Below are positions 40,131 to 52,211 of a stretch of 64,000 nucleotides of DNA, in pieces. Source of the DNA: a virus. Taxonomy: Duplodnaviria > Caudoviricetes. The position numbers and the translations under genes are program-made. The stretch lies in the IMG/VR virus record IMGVR_UViG_3300028833_000053; one strand, written 5' to 3'. The notes below the pieces were generated by a model that was not told the origin of the DNA, searched no databases, and worked only from the letters and a program-made list of their open reading frames with translations. Numbering within the stretch: position 1 is the first letter of the stretch; each line of letters begins with the position of its first letter.

Positions 40131-40251
40131 CGTCTGTTTCTCCTGTGAAATTTCCTCTACCCAATTATACACCTTCCGAACTTGCTTGTAAAGGTTTACA
40201 TAAACGCCCATTAGTGGTATAATTGGGTATGACGATTTAGGCAGATAGAAT

Positions 40252-48196: not shown

Positions 48197-49876
48197 ATGG
48201 ATAATTACTGCACCAAGATAAACGAAAAGACAGACGAGGTGCTTCTTGCCATAAAGAAGTCCTCGCAAAAGATAGCCGACATCGTATCACAAACGGCTGG
48301 TCCGTATGGGCATAACGTGATGCTCATCAACGGGAAATCATGCAGAATCACGAAGGATGGAATTTCGGTTCTGCGTTCAATCACCGAGCCGGAAACTGAA
48401 TCAGATTTCATTGCGTTGAGCGTCATTCGCTCCGCTTCCGACGAGACGAACAGAAAGGCTGGTGACGGAACAACGGCAACCTGCATTCTTGCGAACGAGA
48501 TTTTCCAGCAGGGCTACAACTTCCTCACAGCGGGCTGCAATGGCAACTTGTTGAGGAACGGCATTACAAAGGCTTCTGAAATTGCACAGAAGTTGGTTGT
48601 TGACAATTTGACTACGCCTGTAAAGGATGACAAGGACATCTACAACGTGGCGAAGATTTCATCAAATGGTTCCGACGAAATTGCCAAGATTCTCACGGAC
48701 GTGTTCTCCAAGATTGGCAAGGATGGCATGGCGCGTGTGGAGCTTTCCAACACTGACAAGACCACCTCCAAGATTGTGTATGGCATGACCATTGACCGCG
48801 GGTATGAGTCCCCCTATTTCGCAACAAATACGCATGGCGAGGCCGTCCTTGACAACCCGGTTATTCTTCTCATCAACAAGAGGTTGTCCGTCCTTGGCGA
48901 ATTGCTGAAGCCGTTTGAGACATTGGCGAAGCTCAACCGCCCGATTCTTGTTGTGGCGGAGGGATATGATCCCGACATTCTCAACACGTTCATCCTCAAC
49001 AAGATGCGTGGTCTGCCAATTTGCGCGATTCTTGCCCCGAACTATGGGGAGCACCGCACGAAGATGATGGAAGACCTTGCCGTTGTCACCGGTGGCAAGG
49101 TGATTTCCCCCGCAACGGGAATCACTTTGGAGCAGATTACAACAGATCCAACCATCATGGGTACGGCAAAGCAGGTTATCGTGAACACGGATTCCACGTC
49201 CTTCATCGCCGACACGACAAAGATTCAGAAGGACAGATTCGACGCCCGTGTTGCCGAAATCAAGCATGAGTTGGAGGAAGAGAAGCTGGCCGACTATGAC
49301 AGGAACATTCTCAAGACAAGAATGGCACGTATGGTTTCGGGCATTGGCATCATCAGCGTTGGTGGTGCAACCGAGGCCGAAATGCACGAAAAGAAAGACT
49401 TGGTTGACGACTCTTTCGCGTCCGTGTCAAGTTCCCAGAAGAAGGGCATTGTATCGGGTTGCGGCTTGACCTACCTTGCAATCCACGATGCCCTTTATAC
49501 TTGGTTGAACGATCACTTGGCCGAACTTTCATCCGAGGAGGCAAGCGGGTTCAAGGTGTTTGCGGATTCCCTCACAAAGCCGTTCTTGACGATTTGCGGG
49601 AATTCCGGACACCAGAATTCTCAGTACGCCCTTGGAATCGTTCAGACCACCAACCGCGACGAACACGCCAATGACACCGCAATGAAGAACTGGACAAAGT
49701 GCGTTGATCTTGGAACCGGTGAAATGATTGACGTAATGGAGAAGGGAATTGTGGATTCTGCGGCCGCCGTCATCGAGACCATGAAGAATGGTGCCGCAGC
49801 GGGTGCGCAGTTGCTTTCTTTGAGTGGTGTTGTCAATACTCCGCCAAAGCCATTGCCCGTTCCGCCCCAGGCGTAA
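48197..49876 (+). CDS. groEL: Phage-encoded group I chaperonin
   Basis: TAGPYG.N, ITKDG, AGDGTTT, DRGY.SPYF, VGGATEAEM.EKKD. Confidence 0.95.
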   Translation: MDNYCTKINEKTDEVLLAIKKSSQKIADIVSQTAGPYGHNVMLINGKSCRITKDGISVLRSITEPETESDFIALSVIRSASDETNRKAGDGTTATCILANEIFQQGYNFLTAGCNGNLLRNGITKASEIAQKLVVDNLTTPVKDDKDIYNVAKISSNGSDEIAKILTDVFSKIGKDGMARVELSNTDKTTSKIVYGMTIDRGYESPYFATNTHGEAVLDNPVILLINKRLSVLGELLKPFETLAKLNRPILVVAEGYDPDILNTFILNKMRGLPICAILAPNYGEHRTKMMEDLAVVTGGKVISPATGITLEQITTDPTIMGTAKQVIVNTDSTSFIADTTKIQKDRFDARVAEIKHELEEEKLADYDRNILKTRMARMVSGIGIISVGGATEAEMHEKKDLVDDSFASVSSSQKKGIVSGCGLTYLAIHDALYTWLNDHLAELSSEEASGFKVFADSLTKPFLTICGNSGHQNSQYALGIVQTTNRDEHANDTAMKNWTKCVDLGTGEMIDVMEKGIVDSAAAVIETMKNGAAAGAQLLSLSGVVNTPPKPLPVPPQA

Positions 49877-49904
49877 AAATTCTGAAAAATTCTGCGAAAA
49901 GCAC

Positions 49905-49933
49905 TTTACAAGATCCTGGTTTTCGCGTATAAT
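49905..49933 (+). promoter_or_regulatory. Sigma70-type promoter (one of about 20 in the window)
   Basis: TTTACA-N17-TATAAT; similar sites at 11569, 28953, 29373, 32104, 36205, 40195, 51723, 51850, 53292 and 58403. Confidence 0.75.
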
Positions 49934-49935
49934 GT

Positions 49936-50030
49936 AAGTGTTGTTTGTGGTGATGTGAAAGATACTTCGACGAACAATGAATTAAGGAAATTCACCAAAC
50001 CTCTTTCACAAGTTTTCCCAAGCAACACTT
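49936..50030 (+). ncRNA. Y-RNA-like RNA 1
   Basis: Own TTTACA-N17-TATAAT promoter; terminal stem with bulged U, GGUGA, 9-bp inner stem, UACUUC; adjacent to TROVE. Confidence 0.7.
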
Positions 50031-50060
50031 CAATTTATCAACAGAGAAAGGACATTGGCG

Positions 50061-51719
50061 ATGAGCAAGTTCAATAGCAAGAAGCCGGGAGTTCAAATGG
50101 CGAAGAACTTCATGGGTGAGGACGCATATGTGTTGTCTGACAAGGAAGCCTTGACTTCCATGGTCATGACCACGTTCCTTTCGGATTCCTATTATGTTAC
50201 GGAAAGCGACTTGGTTAACAACATCCTGACCCTTGTTGGGAAGTGCGGCAACGAGTTCGCCGCGAAGTTGGCTCTTTATGCAAGGACGAAGGGAAACATG
50301 CGTTCGGTGAGCCATTTGCTTGCCGCCATTGTCTGCAGGGATTCAGACCATCCATCATGGCTCAAGTCCTTCTACGAGCATATCGTGAACAGGCCCGATG
50401 ATATTTCCGAGATTCTGGCTTGCTATGGCAAGTTGAATGGCTTTGACCTCACTTCGGGAAAGCTGCGCAAGATTCCAAACTCGATGAAGAAGGGCTTTGC
50501 CACGGTGCTTTCGGGTCTTTCCCCCTATCAGATTGACAAGTACAAGATGAATGGGAAGTCATTGTCGTTGGTGGACATCTTGAACCTTGTTCATCCTACG
50601 CCGACCGACAAGAACAGGGAAGCCTATCGCAGGCTGATGCATGGGGAGTCCCTTGATGGAACTTACGACGCCAAGATTCTTGAGAAGGAAATGGCCGAGA
50701 CGGGCAAGAACGCCAGCAACGAGCAGGAACTGTTTTTGGCAAAGCACGATGCCATCAAGTCCGTCTTGGATTCGGGAATGCCCATAATGAACCTTCTCCG
50801 CAACCTGCACAACATCATGATTTACGCCCCAGACCTTGTGGAAGAGGCTATCAAGCAGCTCACGAACCGAGACAAGATTGTGAACAGCAAGTTGCTGCCA
50901 TTCCGCTTCATGTCTGCCTATGACGTTGTAGACAAGATGGAACTGTCGGACTACATTGTTTCTGAAACTCCAAACACCGCGATAAGGTTTGAGTCGGAGG
51001 TTGCCCGCATGGACTACAGCCAGCTTGAAACAATCAAGGCGAAGGTTCTGAAGGCAATTGAGGACGCCATGTCCATTGCCTGCGAGAACGTCCCAGACCT
51101 TGAGGGCAACTGCGCAATCCTTATCGATCATTCAGGTTCCGTGCGCGGTGACTGGGGTGGAGATTCCAGGGTTTCGCCTTGGAGCAATGTACGTACCGCC
51201 CATATCGGGAACCTGTTTGGCTCCATCGTGGCTTTCAAGCAGAAGGATGTCTACATTGGGATGTTCGGCGACAAACTCATTTCACCGAAGATGGACCGCA
51301 GCGTTGGCTTGCTTGAGTTCAACAAGAAGTCCTACGACGAGGGTGACAAGTGTGGTGGAGCGACCGAGAACGGACTGTACAAGTTCTTGGAGAATGTCAT
51401 CAAGGAAAAGAAGCACATTGACAACTTCATCGTGTTCTCCGACATGGAAATCGGCAATGGTGGCGAGGGTGGATGGGACCGCACAAGCACTGCAAGGTGC
51501 AAGTTCCAGGACTTGTTCAAGGAGTTCCGCAAGATAAACCCCAACTGCCTCACTGTGTGCTGCAACATCCGTGGTCAGAGTGGAACTTCCGTGTTCAATC
51601 CCAACCTCAAGATTCTGAACGTCTCAGGGTGGTCTAACAACATCTTTGACGTGATTTCCATGTACAAGACCGGCAAGTTGAAGTCAATGGTTGAGGACAT
51701 CGAGAAAATGAGCATTTAG
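50061..51719 (+). CDS. Ro60/Rsr TROVE-domain RNA-binding protein with vWA domain (extends to 51743 if TAG is read)
   Basis: FAAKLALYAR..NMRSV, RPDD, LLRNL, LLPFRF..AY, IDHSGS, FSDME. Confidence 0.92.
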   Translation: MSKFNSKKPGVQMAKNFMGEDAYVLSDKEALTSMVMTTFLSDSYYVTESDLVNNILTLVGKCGNEFAAKLALYARTKGNMRSVSHLLAAIVCRDSDHPSWLKSFYEHIVNRPDDISEILACYGKLNGFDLTSGKLRKIPNSMKKGFATVLSGLSPYQIDKYKMNGKSLSLVDILNLVHPTPTDKNREAYRRLMHGESLDGTYDAKILEKEMAETGKNASNEQELFLAKHDAIKSVLDSGMPIMNLLRNLHNIMIYAPDLVEEAIKQLTNRDKIVNSKLLPFRFMSAYDVVDKMELSDYIVSETPNTAIRFESEVARMDYSQLETIKAKVLKAIEDAMSIACENVPDLEGNCAILIDHSGSVRGDWGGDSRVSPWSNVRTAHIGNLFGSIVAFKQKDVYIGMFGDKLISPKMDRSVGLLEFNKKSYDEGDKCGGATENGLYKFLENVIKEKKHIDNFIVFSDMEIGNGGEGGWDRTSTARCKFQDLFKEFRKINPNCLTVCCNIRGQSGTSVFNPNLKILNVSGWSNNIFDVISMYKTGKLKSMVEDIEKMSI

Positions 51720-51757
51720 GGCTTTACACGGAACGCGGTTTGACGTATAATTAATGT

Positions 51758-51832
51758 AGCCAGTGGTGAATGGATTGTTACTTCTGATCTGTTAAATCAA
51801 CCTAGTTACCCAATCCACGTTTTTCCCTGGCT
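51758..51832 (+). ncRNA. Y-RNA-like RNA 2
   Basis: Own TTTACA-N17-TATAAT promoter; same architecture as RNA 1 with different stem sequences; followed by a U tract. Confidence 0.72.
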
Positions 51833-51905
51833 TTTCTTTTTAACGCGCCTTTACAACGGGCGCGTTTTATTGTATAATAAAACATAGCAACAAAGGAGAG
51901 CAGAT

Positions 51906-52211
51906 ATGCGACATGTAACCGTACCAAACTACACGGTCAACCGCCCCTATGACGGGGGCTTTGGATACCATACCTACAACTTCACCAGTCCGACGAAGGA
52001 CAGGGTTTATGTCAAGGTTCTGAAGTTTGTTGAGAGCCATCCAAAGTGCAAACGCAGGGATATTCAGTTTGGCGTGTGGGGAAACCACAACAAGAGCAAT
52101 TCCACGTTGTTCGCCCAGATGCTCTACCACGACATCCTTGACTACAACAAGAATTTCGAGTACAGGGTCACGCGCAAGGGCAAGAACATTTTGAGGAAGG
52201 TGTTCAAGTAA
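51906..52211 (+). CDS. Winged-helix-like small protein
   Basis: Own promoter; C-terminal YRVTRKGKNIL. Confidence 0.6.
   Translation: MRHVTVPNYTVNRPYDGGFGYHTYNFTSPTKDRVYVKVLKFVESHPKCKRRDIQFGVWGNHNKSNSTLFAQMLYHDILDYNKNFEYRVTRKGKNILRKVFK

What the first reader, a model, noticed from the sequence alone, without database searches (positions are those of the whole stretch)
49905..51840. Phage Ro60 flanked by two independently promoted minimal Y-like RNAs
Seen: RNA1 (49936-50030) and RNA2 (51758-51832) each follow TTTACA-N17-TATAAT. They share one fold with different stem sequences: terminal stem, single bulged U, GG/CC pairs, UGA(A) opposite GUUUU, inner stem (UGUGAAAGA/UCUUUCACA versus UGGAUUG/CAAUCCA), then UACUUC and a variable apical part. 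RNA2's apex holds UGAU-CUGUUAA-AUCA, an anticodon-arm mimic with a tRNA-Asn-type loop. Established: bacterial Rsr genes neighbour Y RNAs with a bulged Ro-binding helix, and YrlA carries a tRNA-like domain. Inference: stripped-down Y RNAs lacking D and T arms, giving two Ro RNPs with different effector loops. Possible roles are anticodon-nuclease decoy or RNA quality control in a phage that depends on altered decoding.
Basis: partly seen in the sequence, partly recalled or inferred. Interest (0 to 1): 0.85.

Follow-up and report, generated by a model that had tools for sequence, protein, structure and literature searches.

The report
Phage Ro60 gene with two minimal Y RNAs
A 434-kb phage encodes a Ro60-type ring protein flanked by two small folded RNAs that carry the known Ro60-binding handle of bacterial Y RNAs but lack the usual tRNA-like domain; one instead shows a hairpin that copies the anticodon loop of asparagine tRNA.

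Summary
RNA1 (49936-50030) and RNA2 (51754-51836) flank a true Ro60 orthologue: a TROVE ring plus a vWA domain with MIDAS, with a full-length fold match to Ro60 structures. Each RNA follows TTTACA-N17-TATAAT. Both share one architecture in the same register: terminal stem, bulged U, GG/CC, UGA, a 9-nt stem, UACUUC, then UUUUCCC. The stems covary.

A covariance model built from these RNAs finds the same handle directly upstream of TROVE genes on the same strand. This holds in crAss-like gut phages and in bacteria (Hymenobacter, Acetivibrio, Clostridia). The handle matches the Ro-binding module of YrlA: GGUGAAUG...UUAC against the Rfam consensus GGCGAAUG...CUAC.

I read them as minimal, YrlB-like Y RNAs. 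The genome has no YrlA, RtcB or PNPase gene. RNA2's apical loop CUGUUAA is invariant, its stem covaries, and it equals the loop of the phage's own tRNA-Asn. Related phages put whole cloverleaves (Lys, Tyr, Pro, Arg) on the same handle.

Two corrections. RNA1 shares its promoter with ro60 and is its mRNA leader. RNA2's promoter is missing in one relative.

Expression, Ro60 binding and function are untested. This scan has noted similar handle-tagged RNA sets beside phage Ro60 genes on other DNA. Verdict: a new variant of a known kind.

The parts
49905..49933 (+). Promoter P1 (TTTACA-N17-TATAAT). It serves both RNA1 and the ro60 gene.
   Evidence: It is conserved upstream of RNA1 in L001-L004. 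No other promoter or terminator lies before the ORF.
49936..50030 (+). RNA1, a minimal Y RNA and the leader of the ro60 mRNA. Handle motifs: GUGGUGA 49947-49953, UACUUC 49963-49968, UUUUCCC 50013-50019. The apex holds a small hairpin around 49977-49993.
   Evidence: Fold z -3.7; covariation; R1 score 79.7 bits.
50061..51719 (+). Ro60/Rsr orthologue of 552 aa: a TROVE HEAT-repeat ring plus a vWA domain with the MIDAS motif DHSGS.
   Evidence: Pfam TROVE. Best PDB sequence match is phiLo Ro60, E 2.7e-10. The AF2 model (pLDDT 78.5) matches Ro60 structures over the full length, TM about 0.65. MIDAS residues are visible in the translation. It is the only TROVE gene in the genome.
51723..51751 (+). 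Promoter P2 (TTTACA-N17-TATAAT) in front of RNA2.
   Evidence: Present in L001, L002 and L004; absent in L003, where RNA2 follows the stop codon directly.
51754..51836 (+). RNA2, a minimal Y RNA (core 51758-51832). Handle motifs: GUGGUGA 51763-51769, UACUUC 51779-51784, UUUUCCC 51821-51827. A U-rich tail follows.
   Evidence: Fold z -3.9; covariation; R1 score 67.4 bits.
51785..51799 (+). Anticodon-arm-like hairpin of RNA2. The stem is 4 bp here and 5 bp in three relatives. The 7-nt loop CUGUUAA occupies 51789-51795.
   Evidence: The loop is invariant and two stem pairs covary. The loop is identical to that of the phage's own tRNA-Asn(GUU).
51842..51878 (+). Terminator-like hairpin (51842-51866) whose loop holds the -35 box of promoter P3 (51850-51878). 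It marks the likely outer end of the RNA2/ro60 transcription unit and the start of the next gene.
   Evidence: The hairpin is conserved with stem changes in L001, L003 and L004.

Best explanation
RNA1 and RNA2 are Y RNAs, the small noncoding partners of the phage's Ro60 (Rsr) orthologue. Both have a long 5'/3' terminal helix containing a bulged U, a GG/CC step and the 5'-strand motif GGUGA(A)UG. After an 8-9 bp helix comes UACUUC. I take this part to be the Ro60-binding handle, because it is the same module as in bacterial YrlA (Rfam consensus GGCGAAUG...CUAC). It would sit on the outer face of the Ro60 ring, as in the Xenopus Ro60-Y RNA structure. The variable apex would be the effector module. 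Here it is not a tRNA-like T/D domain. In RNA1 it is a small hairpin with single-stranded flanks. In RNA2 it is a copy of the tRNA-Asn anticodon arm.

RNA1 is made as the 5' leader of the ro60 mRNA. It is either cut out of that transcript, as Y RNAs are cut from operon transcripts in Salmonella and Mycobacterium, or it also acts in cis. RNA2 has its own promoter in most relatives and ends at its U-tract or at the hairpin 51842-51866.

The most likely action, by analogy with Deinococcus, Salmonella and phage phiLo, is to gate Ro60 and tether it to a host partner. That partner could be PNPase, which the phage does not encode, or for RNA2 a protein that reads anticodon loops.

Shown here: the sequence, fold, covariation, linkage to TROVE genes, the match to the YrlA handle and the Ro60 fold. 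Inferred: transcription, processing, Ro60 binding and the partners.
For: - The protein is a Ro60 orthologue.
- Structure and covariation: 21 pairs, 94.6% of cells paired and no shuffle in 500 reaching the observed pairing or covariation score on 10 sequences. On 29 model-aligned sequences all 21 pairs have changes on both sides, and 90.5% of cells pair against 45-49% in slid controls.
- Linkage: an RNA-only pattern scan of viral contigs, filtered with model R1, picked loci that carry a TROVE gene just downstream on the same strand. The one exception is L126.
- In 53 bacterial TROVE loci, R1 hits lie within about 400 nt upstream of rsr in 13 of them, including Hymenobacter, Acetivibrio, Clostridium, Ruminococcus and Prevotella. 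A weak hit (E 0.13) in a 14th locus, L161, lies about 1.2 kb upstream.
- Handle homology: the series GGCGAAG, GGCGAUG, GGUGAUG, GGUGAAUG is seen among homologues. The Rfam YrlA consensus reads GGCGAAUG...CUAC. The published Rsr motif is GNCGAAN0-1G with a conserved YUAY (PMC4201824).
- The same handle carries YrlA-type domains in csAssE-Sib and in L006.
- R1 finds only these two copies in the 434-kb genome, both beside its single TROVE gene.
- The promoters are placed so that transcription starts at the first bases of each terminal stem.
Against:
- There is no binding test.
- The canonical C of GNCGAA is a U in both RNAs, and RNA1 also has U for the second A.
- Rfam YrlA and Y_RNA models give no match, even at E up to 10.
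- Published work says every characterised species has at least one Y RNA with a tRNA-like module. This genome has none linked to the handle.
- RNA1 has no terminator of its own, so it may never exist as a free small RNA.
Confidence: 0.8

Rival explanations
1. The elements act mainly in cis. RNA1 would be an operator in the ro60 5' UTR through which Ro60 controls its own translation or mRNA stability. RNA2 would be a 3'-end structure that stabilises or terminates the ro60 transcript. Neither would be a free, trans-acting Y RNA.
For: No terminator lies between RNA1 and the ORF. The terminal stem ends 31 nt before the ATG and about 15 nt before the ribosome-binding site. In L003, RNA2 follows the stop codon without a promoter. 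The RNA2 terminal stem is followed by a U-tract.
Against: The same handle occurs in tandem arrays of two to four units upstream of rsr (L137, L173, L182), and L126 holds three units with no TROVE gene found. In L067 a unit lies 1.4 kb downstream of the gene. Neither arrangement fits a single operator. Four of five genomes give RNA2 its own strong promoter. Known Y RNAs are processed from operon transcripts (PMC4201824). The two readings do not exclude each other.
Confidence: 0.13
2. They are conserved structured RNAs that work with some other protein, or alone, and only happen to lie beside the TROVE gene. They might for example be tRNA-related processing signals or decoys that do not need Ro60.
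For: No binding data exist. L126 has three tandem handles with no TROVE gene detected in the 1.3 kb that remain before the contig end.
Against: The handle is linked to TROVE genes that are only 22-30% identical to this one and come from different phyla. It also matches the experimentally mapped Rsr-binding motif of YrlA.
Confidence: 0.05
3. The hairpins are chance structures or promoter-associated inverted repeats with no RNA function.
For: The reverse strands fold about as well.
Against: Compensatory changes occur in every pair across 29 sequences. The unpaired motifs are invariant. G-U pairs are specific to the + strand. The elements recur beside TROVE genes.
Confidence: 0.02

Closest known systems
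YrlB of Salmonella Typhimurium and Mycobacterium smegmatis, and Yrn2 of Deinococcus radiodurans: second, smaller Y RNAs (Chen et al. 2014, PMC4201824)
   Same: They are small RNAs encoded next to rsr on the same strand. They have a long 5'/3' stem with the Rsr motif and no full tRNA-like domain. They coexist as two or more Y RNAs per genome and are partly processed from a shared transcript.
   Different: In those species a YrlA or Yrn1 with a tRNA-like module is also present; here there is none. [quoted passage not shown] Here the apexes are 25-33 nt, and one is an anticodon-arm copy.
YrlA (Rfam RF02553)
   Same: The handle is the same: GGUGAAUG...UUAC against the consensus GGCGAAUG...CUAC, in the same order and spacing relative to the terminal stem. 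The genomic position beside rsr is also the same.
   Different: There is no T arm, D arm or closed acceptor-like stem, and no RF02553 match even at E up to 10. YrlA has no anticodon loop (bioRxiv 10.1101/312249); RNA2 has only that.
Thermus phage phiLo Ro60 with Yrl1 and Yrl2 (PMC12135203; PDB 9KOP, 9L5Y)
   Same: It is a phage-encoded Ro60 with two small Y-like RNAs at the gene. phiLo Ro60 is the closest solved structure by sequence to the protein here. That phage also lacks its own PNPase; its RNAs bind the host PNPase in vitro.
   Different: Both phiLo RNAs lie upstream and carry a CGAA motif. Here one RNA lies on each side of the gene, the motif is UGAA/UGAU, and one apex mimics an anticodon arm.
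Metazoan Y RNAs with Ro60 (Xenopus complex, PDB 1YVP)
   Same: They have a terminal helix with a single bulged pyrimidine and a conserved 5'-strand motif (GGUCCGA), plus a variable effector loop. Several Y RNAs serve one Ro60.
   Different: They are Pol III transcripts with a La-binding U tail. No sequence homology was detectable here.

Membership tests
Bacterial/phage Y RNA (Ro60-associated ncRNA) | Encoded within a few kb of a Ro60/Rsr orthologue, on the same strand | tested here: met
   RNA1 ends 31 nt before the gene, and the RNA2 core starts about 40 nt after its stop codon. Both are on the + strand.
Bacterial/phage Y RNA (Ro60-associated ncRNA) | [quoted passage not shown] | tested here: met
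   The RNAs are 75-95 nt. The terminal and inner helices are supported by covariation.
Bacterial/phage Y RNA (Ro60-associated ncRNA) | 5'-strand Rsr motif GNCGAAN0-1G | tested here: inconclusive
   RNA2 has GGUGAAUG (7 of 8, U for C) and RNA1 has GGUGAUG (U for C and for the second A). Homologues found by the same model carry GGCGAAG and GGCGAUG. The position matches the Rfam YrlA consensus.
Bacterial/phage Y RNA (Ro60-associated ncRNA) | Bound by Ro60, and dependent on it for accumulation | not testable with these tools
   This needs a pull-down, EMSA or Northern blot.
YrlA (RF02553) | tRNA-like domain with conserved T and D stem-loops and a closed acceptor-like stem | tested here: not met
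   There is no RF02553 or tRNA match in 49850-51920 at E up to 10. The apexes of 25-33 nt have no room for these arms.
YrlA (RF02553) | Conserved YUAY after the Ro-binding stem | tested here: met
   RNA2 has UUAC. RNA1 has AUAC, where the first position is not a pyrimidine. UACUUC is invariant in 28 of 29 homologues.
Ro60/Rsr protein | TROVE HEAT-repeat ring plus a vWA domain with MIDAS (DxSxS...T...D) | tested here: met
   Pfam TROVE. DHSGS, GATE and SDME are present in the translation. The full-length fold matches 9KOP, 1YVP, 9NF8 and 2NVO.
tRNA anticodon arm (mimic) | 5-bp stem and a 7-nt loop with Y32, U33 and R37 | tested here: met
   The loop CUGUUAA fits the pattern and equals the phage tRNA-Asn loop. 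The stem is 5 bp in L001, L002 and L004, but only 4 bp in the window and L003.

The most novel reading that the evidence does not exclude
In gut and rumen phages the Ro60 handle may be a modular display platform for tRNA parts. The apex is an anticodon arm alone in this phage (Asn GUU). In crAss-like phages and Lachnospiraceae elements it is a whole, unpermuted cloverleaf (Lys UUU, Tyr GUA, Pro UGG, Arg UCU), some of them annotated as tRNA genes. Elsewhere it is a permuted YrlA domain. On this reading the Ro60-bound, exonuclease-protected RNAs serve as decoys or competitive inhibitors for host enzymes that attack or read anticodon loops, such as anticodon-nuclease defences. A cloverleaf form could alternatively be a Ro60-held store of phage tRNA precursors. 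A competitive-inhibitor idea was raised for YrlA in PMC7790460, although YrlA has no anticodon loop.
Probability: 0.15. Interest if true: 0.8.

Novelty: new variant of a known kind. Interest (0 to 1): 0.5.

Why it matters
Ro60 and Y RNAs are known from animals, bacteria and some phages, but what the bacterial and phage particles do is still open. This locus, with the homologues found here, gives a compact and clearly bounded pair of Y RNAs: about 80-95 nt each, with strong sigma-70-type promoters and no tRNA-like domain. The handle and the effector parts are easy to separate, which suits binding and structural work.

It also shows that the YrlA-type handle is more widespread than the Rfam model detects. 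The handle carries interchangeable apexes, from a bare anticodon arm to a full cloverleaf. That links Ro60 particles more directly to anticodon-loop biology (tRNA damage, repair, defence) than YrlA does, since YrlA has no anticodon loop. A practical consequence is that some tRNA genes annotated upstream of phage Ro60 genes (tRNA-Tyr and tRNA-Lys of csAssE-Sib) are embedded in Y-RNA handles and may not be ordinary tRNAs.

Tried and rejected
- Rfam at gathering thresholds on the whole window gave nothing. At E up to 10 on the locus it gave only chance snoRNA-like hits.
- RF02553 on the whole genome gave only weak hits inside the tRNA array. These are the known tandem-tRNA false positives.
- ARAGORN found no tRNA in the window.
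- The RNA-only pattern scan returned mostly chance matches, as expected for 15 fixed bases. I kept only loci that model R1 also scored.
- I looked for a conserved extra helix in the RNA2 apex (ACU/AGU). It is present in three of five genomes only, so I dropped it.
- For a conserved apical structure in RNA1, RNAalifold found none. By eye there is a small hairpin whose base varies, which I did not test further.
- I counted anticodon-type CU-NNN-AA loops among the minimal homologues. There are three independent cases (the RNA2 family, L002 RNA1 with CUGAAAA, L189 with CUUUUAA) among about 35 possible 7-nt-loop hairpins, against roughly 0.2 expected. The count is post hoc and only suggestive.
- Searches of the phage genome for RtcB, Rnl2, TGT and PNPase (RNase PH domain) found none. 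I did not search for Pnkp.
- I did not run complex prediction, because it does not take RNA.
Full report
**Setting.** The window is part of a 433,895-bp virus record with direct terminal repeats. The genome has 36 tRNA genes, including tRNA-Asn(GUU) and a TAG-reading suppressor. The finding covers 49905-51840.

**The protein.** ORF 50061-51719 (+) encodes 552 aa with a Pfam TROVE match (E 3.7e-17). Its best sequence match among solved structures is the Ro60 of Thermus phage phiLo (9KOP/9L5Y, E 2.7e-10). The translation shows a vWA MIDAS signature: DHSGS, then GATE, then SDME. An AlphaFold2 model built on 19 homologues (pLDDT 78.5, pTM 0.73) aligns over its full length with phage, human, Xenopus and Deinococcus Ro60 structures (Foldseek E 1e-11 to 1e-15, TM about 0.6-0.65). 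It is a Ro60/Rsr orthologue and the only TROVE gene in the genome.

**The RNAs.**
- Three TTTACA-N17-TATAAT sites lie at 49905, 51723 and 51850. The window has 10 such sites against 0.02 expected by chance, so this is the promoter type the phage uses.
- RNA1 and RNA2 fold better than their shuffles (z -3.7 and -3.9).
- The two RNAs share an exact register. On the 5' side: terminal stem, bulged U, GG, UGA, a 9-nt stem strand, UACUUC. On the 3' side: a 9-nt stem strand, 2 nt, UUUUCCC, terminal stem.

**Conservation and covariation.**
- Four viral contigs whose Ro60 is 80-82% identical (two of them 414-418 kb long) carry both RNAs in the same places.
- Within RNA1, 5 of 20 predicted pairs show compensatory changes. 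Within RNA2, 4 of 24 do, including two pairs of the apical hairpin.
- On the joint 10-sequence alignment with a hand-drawn 21-pair structure, 94.6% of cells pair and 11 pairs have changes on both sides. No shuffle in 500 reached the observed pairing or covariation score, and slid controls pair at 43-50%.
- Seven G-U cells would be A-C mismatches on the other strand. Together with the direction of the promoters and the gene, this fixes the + strand.

**Is it a Ro60 partner?** I built covariance model R1 from the 10 sequences.
- In the whole phage genome R1 finds only these two copies.
- I scanned viral contigs with a DNA pattern taken from the RNA alone and filtered the matches with R1. The surviving loci turned out to have a TROVE gene directly downstream on the same strand. 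This was shown by tblastn and, for L067, by Pfam. The exception is L126, which has three tandem units after a TnpB gene near a contig end.
- These loci include the published crAss-like phages cr111_1 and csAssE-Sib.
- In 53 bacterial genome loci that encode TROVE proteins 25-52% identical to this one, R1 hits lie just upstream of rsr in 13. They include Hymenobacter glacieicola (two in tandem), three Acetivibrio species, Clostridium sp. MSJ-8, Ruminococcus and Clostridiales MAGs, Prevotella sp. CAG:1092 and a Thermochlorobacter MAG. A weak hit (E 0.13) in a 14th locus, L161, lies about 1.2 kb upstream.
- On 29 model-aligned sequences all 21 pairs vary on both sides. 90.5% of cells pair against 45-49% in slid controls. 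This alignment is fitted to the model and so leans towards the structure, but the margin is large.

**Relation to the known Ro-binding site.**
- Chen et al. 2014 define a 5'-strand motif GNCGAAN0-1G and a conserved YUAY after the stem (PMC4201824).
- The Rfam YrlA consensus begins ...GGCGAAUG, then a stem, then CUAC. RNA2 has GGUGAAUG, a stem, then UUAC. RNA1 has GGUGAUG, a stem, then AUAC.
- Homologues caught by R1 bridge the difference: GGCGAAG and GGCGAUG in L126, UGCGAAG in Gordonia phage Rabbitrun.
- In csAssE-Sib, L006, Acetivibrio and a Ruminococcus MAG, the same handle or the same locus also carries sub-threshold but clear YrlA matches (28-45 bits).
- The handle is therefore the YrlA-type Rsr-binding module with C changed to U. 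What differs in the window is the apex.

**The apexes.** Neither RNA has T or D arms, and Rfam gives no YrlA or tRNA signal there. The genome has no YrlA elsewhere; the weak hits in the tRNA array are the known tandem-tRNA artefact. The published generalisation that each species has at least one tRNA-like Y RNA is therefore not met for handle-bearing RNAs here.

The RNA2 apex is a hairpin at 51785-51799. Its 7-nt loop CUGUUAA is invariant in five genomes, while the stem switches between UGAU/AUCA and (U)CAAU/AUUG(A). The loop is identical to that of the phage's own tRNA-Asn.

Related phages put more of a tRNA on the same handle.
- csAssE-Sib has three handle RNAs upstream of its annotated 'Ro sixty-related protein'. 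One is YrlA-like. The other two contain whole unpermuted cloverleaves that the record annotates as tRNA-Tyr and tRNA-Lys.
- ARAGORN on all TROVE loci finds handle-embedded cloverleaves reading Tyr GUA, Lys UUU (one variant reads UUC), Pro UGG (Lachnospiraceae and Eubacterium contigs, including Lachnospiraceae bacterium A4) and Arg UCU.
- Two other minimal homologues have loops equal to canonical anticodon loops: CUGAAAA in L002 RNA1 and CUUUUAA in L189.
- This makes the anticodon-arm reading of RNA2 credible. The statistics are post hoc.

**Transcription units.**
- P1 is the only promoter before ro60. No terminator separates RNA1 from the ribosome-binding site, so RNA1 is the leader of the ro60 mRNA. 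It would have to be processed to become a free RNA, as Y RNAs are in Salmonella and M. smegmatis (PMC4201824, PMC7790460). It may also let Ro60 act on its own message.
- P2 precedes RNA2 in four of five genomes. In L003, RNA2 follows the stop codon directly.
- RNA2 is followed by a U-rich run and then by a conserved hairpin (51842-51866). The loop of that hairpin contains the -35 box of P3, which drives the next gene.

**Function.** Nothing here tests function. By analogy with Deinococcus and Salmonella (Y RNA tethers Rsr to PNPase) and with phiLo (Yrl1/2 bind the host PNPase in vitro, PMC12135203), the handle should dock on Ro60 and the apex should recruit or occupy a partner.
- The phage has no PNPase, RtcB, Rnl2 or TGT gene.
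- It does have one T4 Rnl1-type RNA ligase about 90 kb away, so anticodon-loop repair is probably within its repertoire.
- A decoy or competitor role against anticodon nucleases was proposed for YrlA by Hughes et al. (PMC7790460). Phage tRNAs are known to counter tRNA-cleaving defences (PMC11555353). RNA2 would fit such a role better than YrlA, but this is speculation.

**Novelty.** Phage Ro60 genes with adjacent Y RNAs are known: 22 phages in Chen et al. 2014 and phiLo in 2025. So are Y RNAs without a tRNA-like domain (YrlB, Yrn2). I found no paper on this handle variant, on Y RNAs in crAss-like or huge gut/rumen phages, or on anticodon-arm or whole-cloverleaf apexes. The jumbo-phage survey PMC7824862 only notes the TROVE protein and 'a tRNA-like partner'. 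Earlier notes of this same scan describe similar handle-tagged RNA sets beside phage Ro60 genes on other DNA, and the same bracketed layout in one relative. Those notes are unchecked AI notes and are not counted as evidence. I class the finding as a new variant of a known kind.

Noticed in passing
L137:1994-2415 (phage csAssE-Sib, OR575929.1): Three RNAs with the same handle lie upstream of the annotated Ro sixty-related protein. The record's tRNA-Tyr and tRNA-Lys genes sit inside two of them. Their acceptor stems are imperfect, there is no CCA, and the Tyr-like loop reads AGGUAAA here, so U33 is lost. They may be Y-RNA apexes rather than ordinary tRNAs.
   Followed up: partly
L010:2340-2445; L149-L157 (for example L157:1336-1471, and Lachnospiraceae bacterium A4, L153): Handle-embedded cloverleaves with other anticodons lie directly upstream of TROVE genes that are 50% identical to this one: Arg UCU in a crAss-like contig, and Pro UGG in Lachnospiraceae and Eubacterium contigs.
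   Followed up: partly
L173:1130-1277; L191:1120-1305; L182:934-1473: Bacterial rsr loci (Hymenobacter glacieicola, Acetivibrio straminisolvens, a Ruminococcus MAG) have minimal handle RNAs. In the latter two these stand in tandem with sub-threshold YrlA copies. The minimal form is therefore not specific to phages and is missed by Rfam.
   Followed up: partly
L126:13421-13679: Three tandem minimal handle RNAs follow an IS605-type TnpB gene. Two of them carry the canonical GGCGA motif. No TROVE gene was found in the 1.3 kb that remain before the contig end.
   Followed up: no
window 51842-51878: A terminator-like hairpin has a loop that contains the -35 hexamer of the next promoter. It is conserved, with stem changes, in L001, L003 and L004. 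It is a compact terminator/promoter overlap.
   Followed up: partly
window 48197-49873: A Cpn60/GroEL-family gene (Pfam E 5.9e-51) lies directly upstream of the Ro60 unit with no terminator between them. The sequence just upstream of P1 looks similar in L001, L003 and L004, which suggests the same neighbour there. I did not test this.
   Followed up: no
G000:C1:249190-249795 (outside the window): A T4 Rnl1-type RNA ligase gene (390 aa by the ORF listing, Pfam RNA_lig_T4_1 E 3.4e-15). It is the only RNA-repair enzyme found among the families searched.
   Followed up: partly
G000:C1:410487-410576 (outside the window): A tRNA with anticodon CUA, which reads TAG. ARAGORN labels it Pyl. It fits the TAG recoding that other notes report for this phage. 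I did not test the recoding.
   Followed up: no
window 678, 13981, 28953, 29373, 32104, 40164(-), 40195: Seven further exact TTTACA-N16-18-TATAAT sites, including a back-to-back divergent pair at 40164-40223. This is probably the phage's main promoter class for host sigma-70-type polymerase.
   Followed up: no
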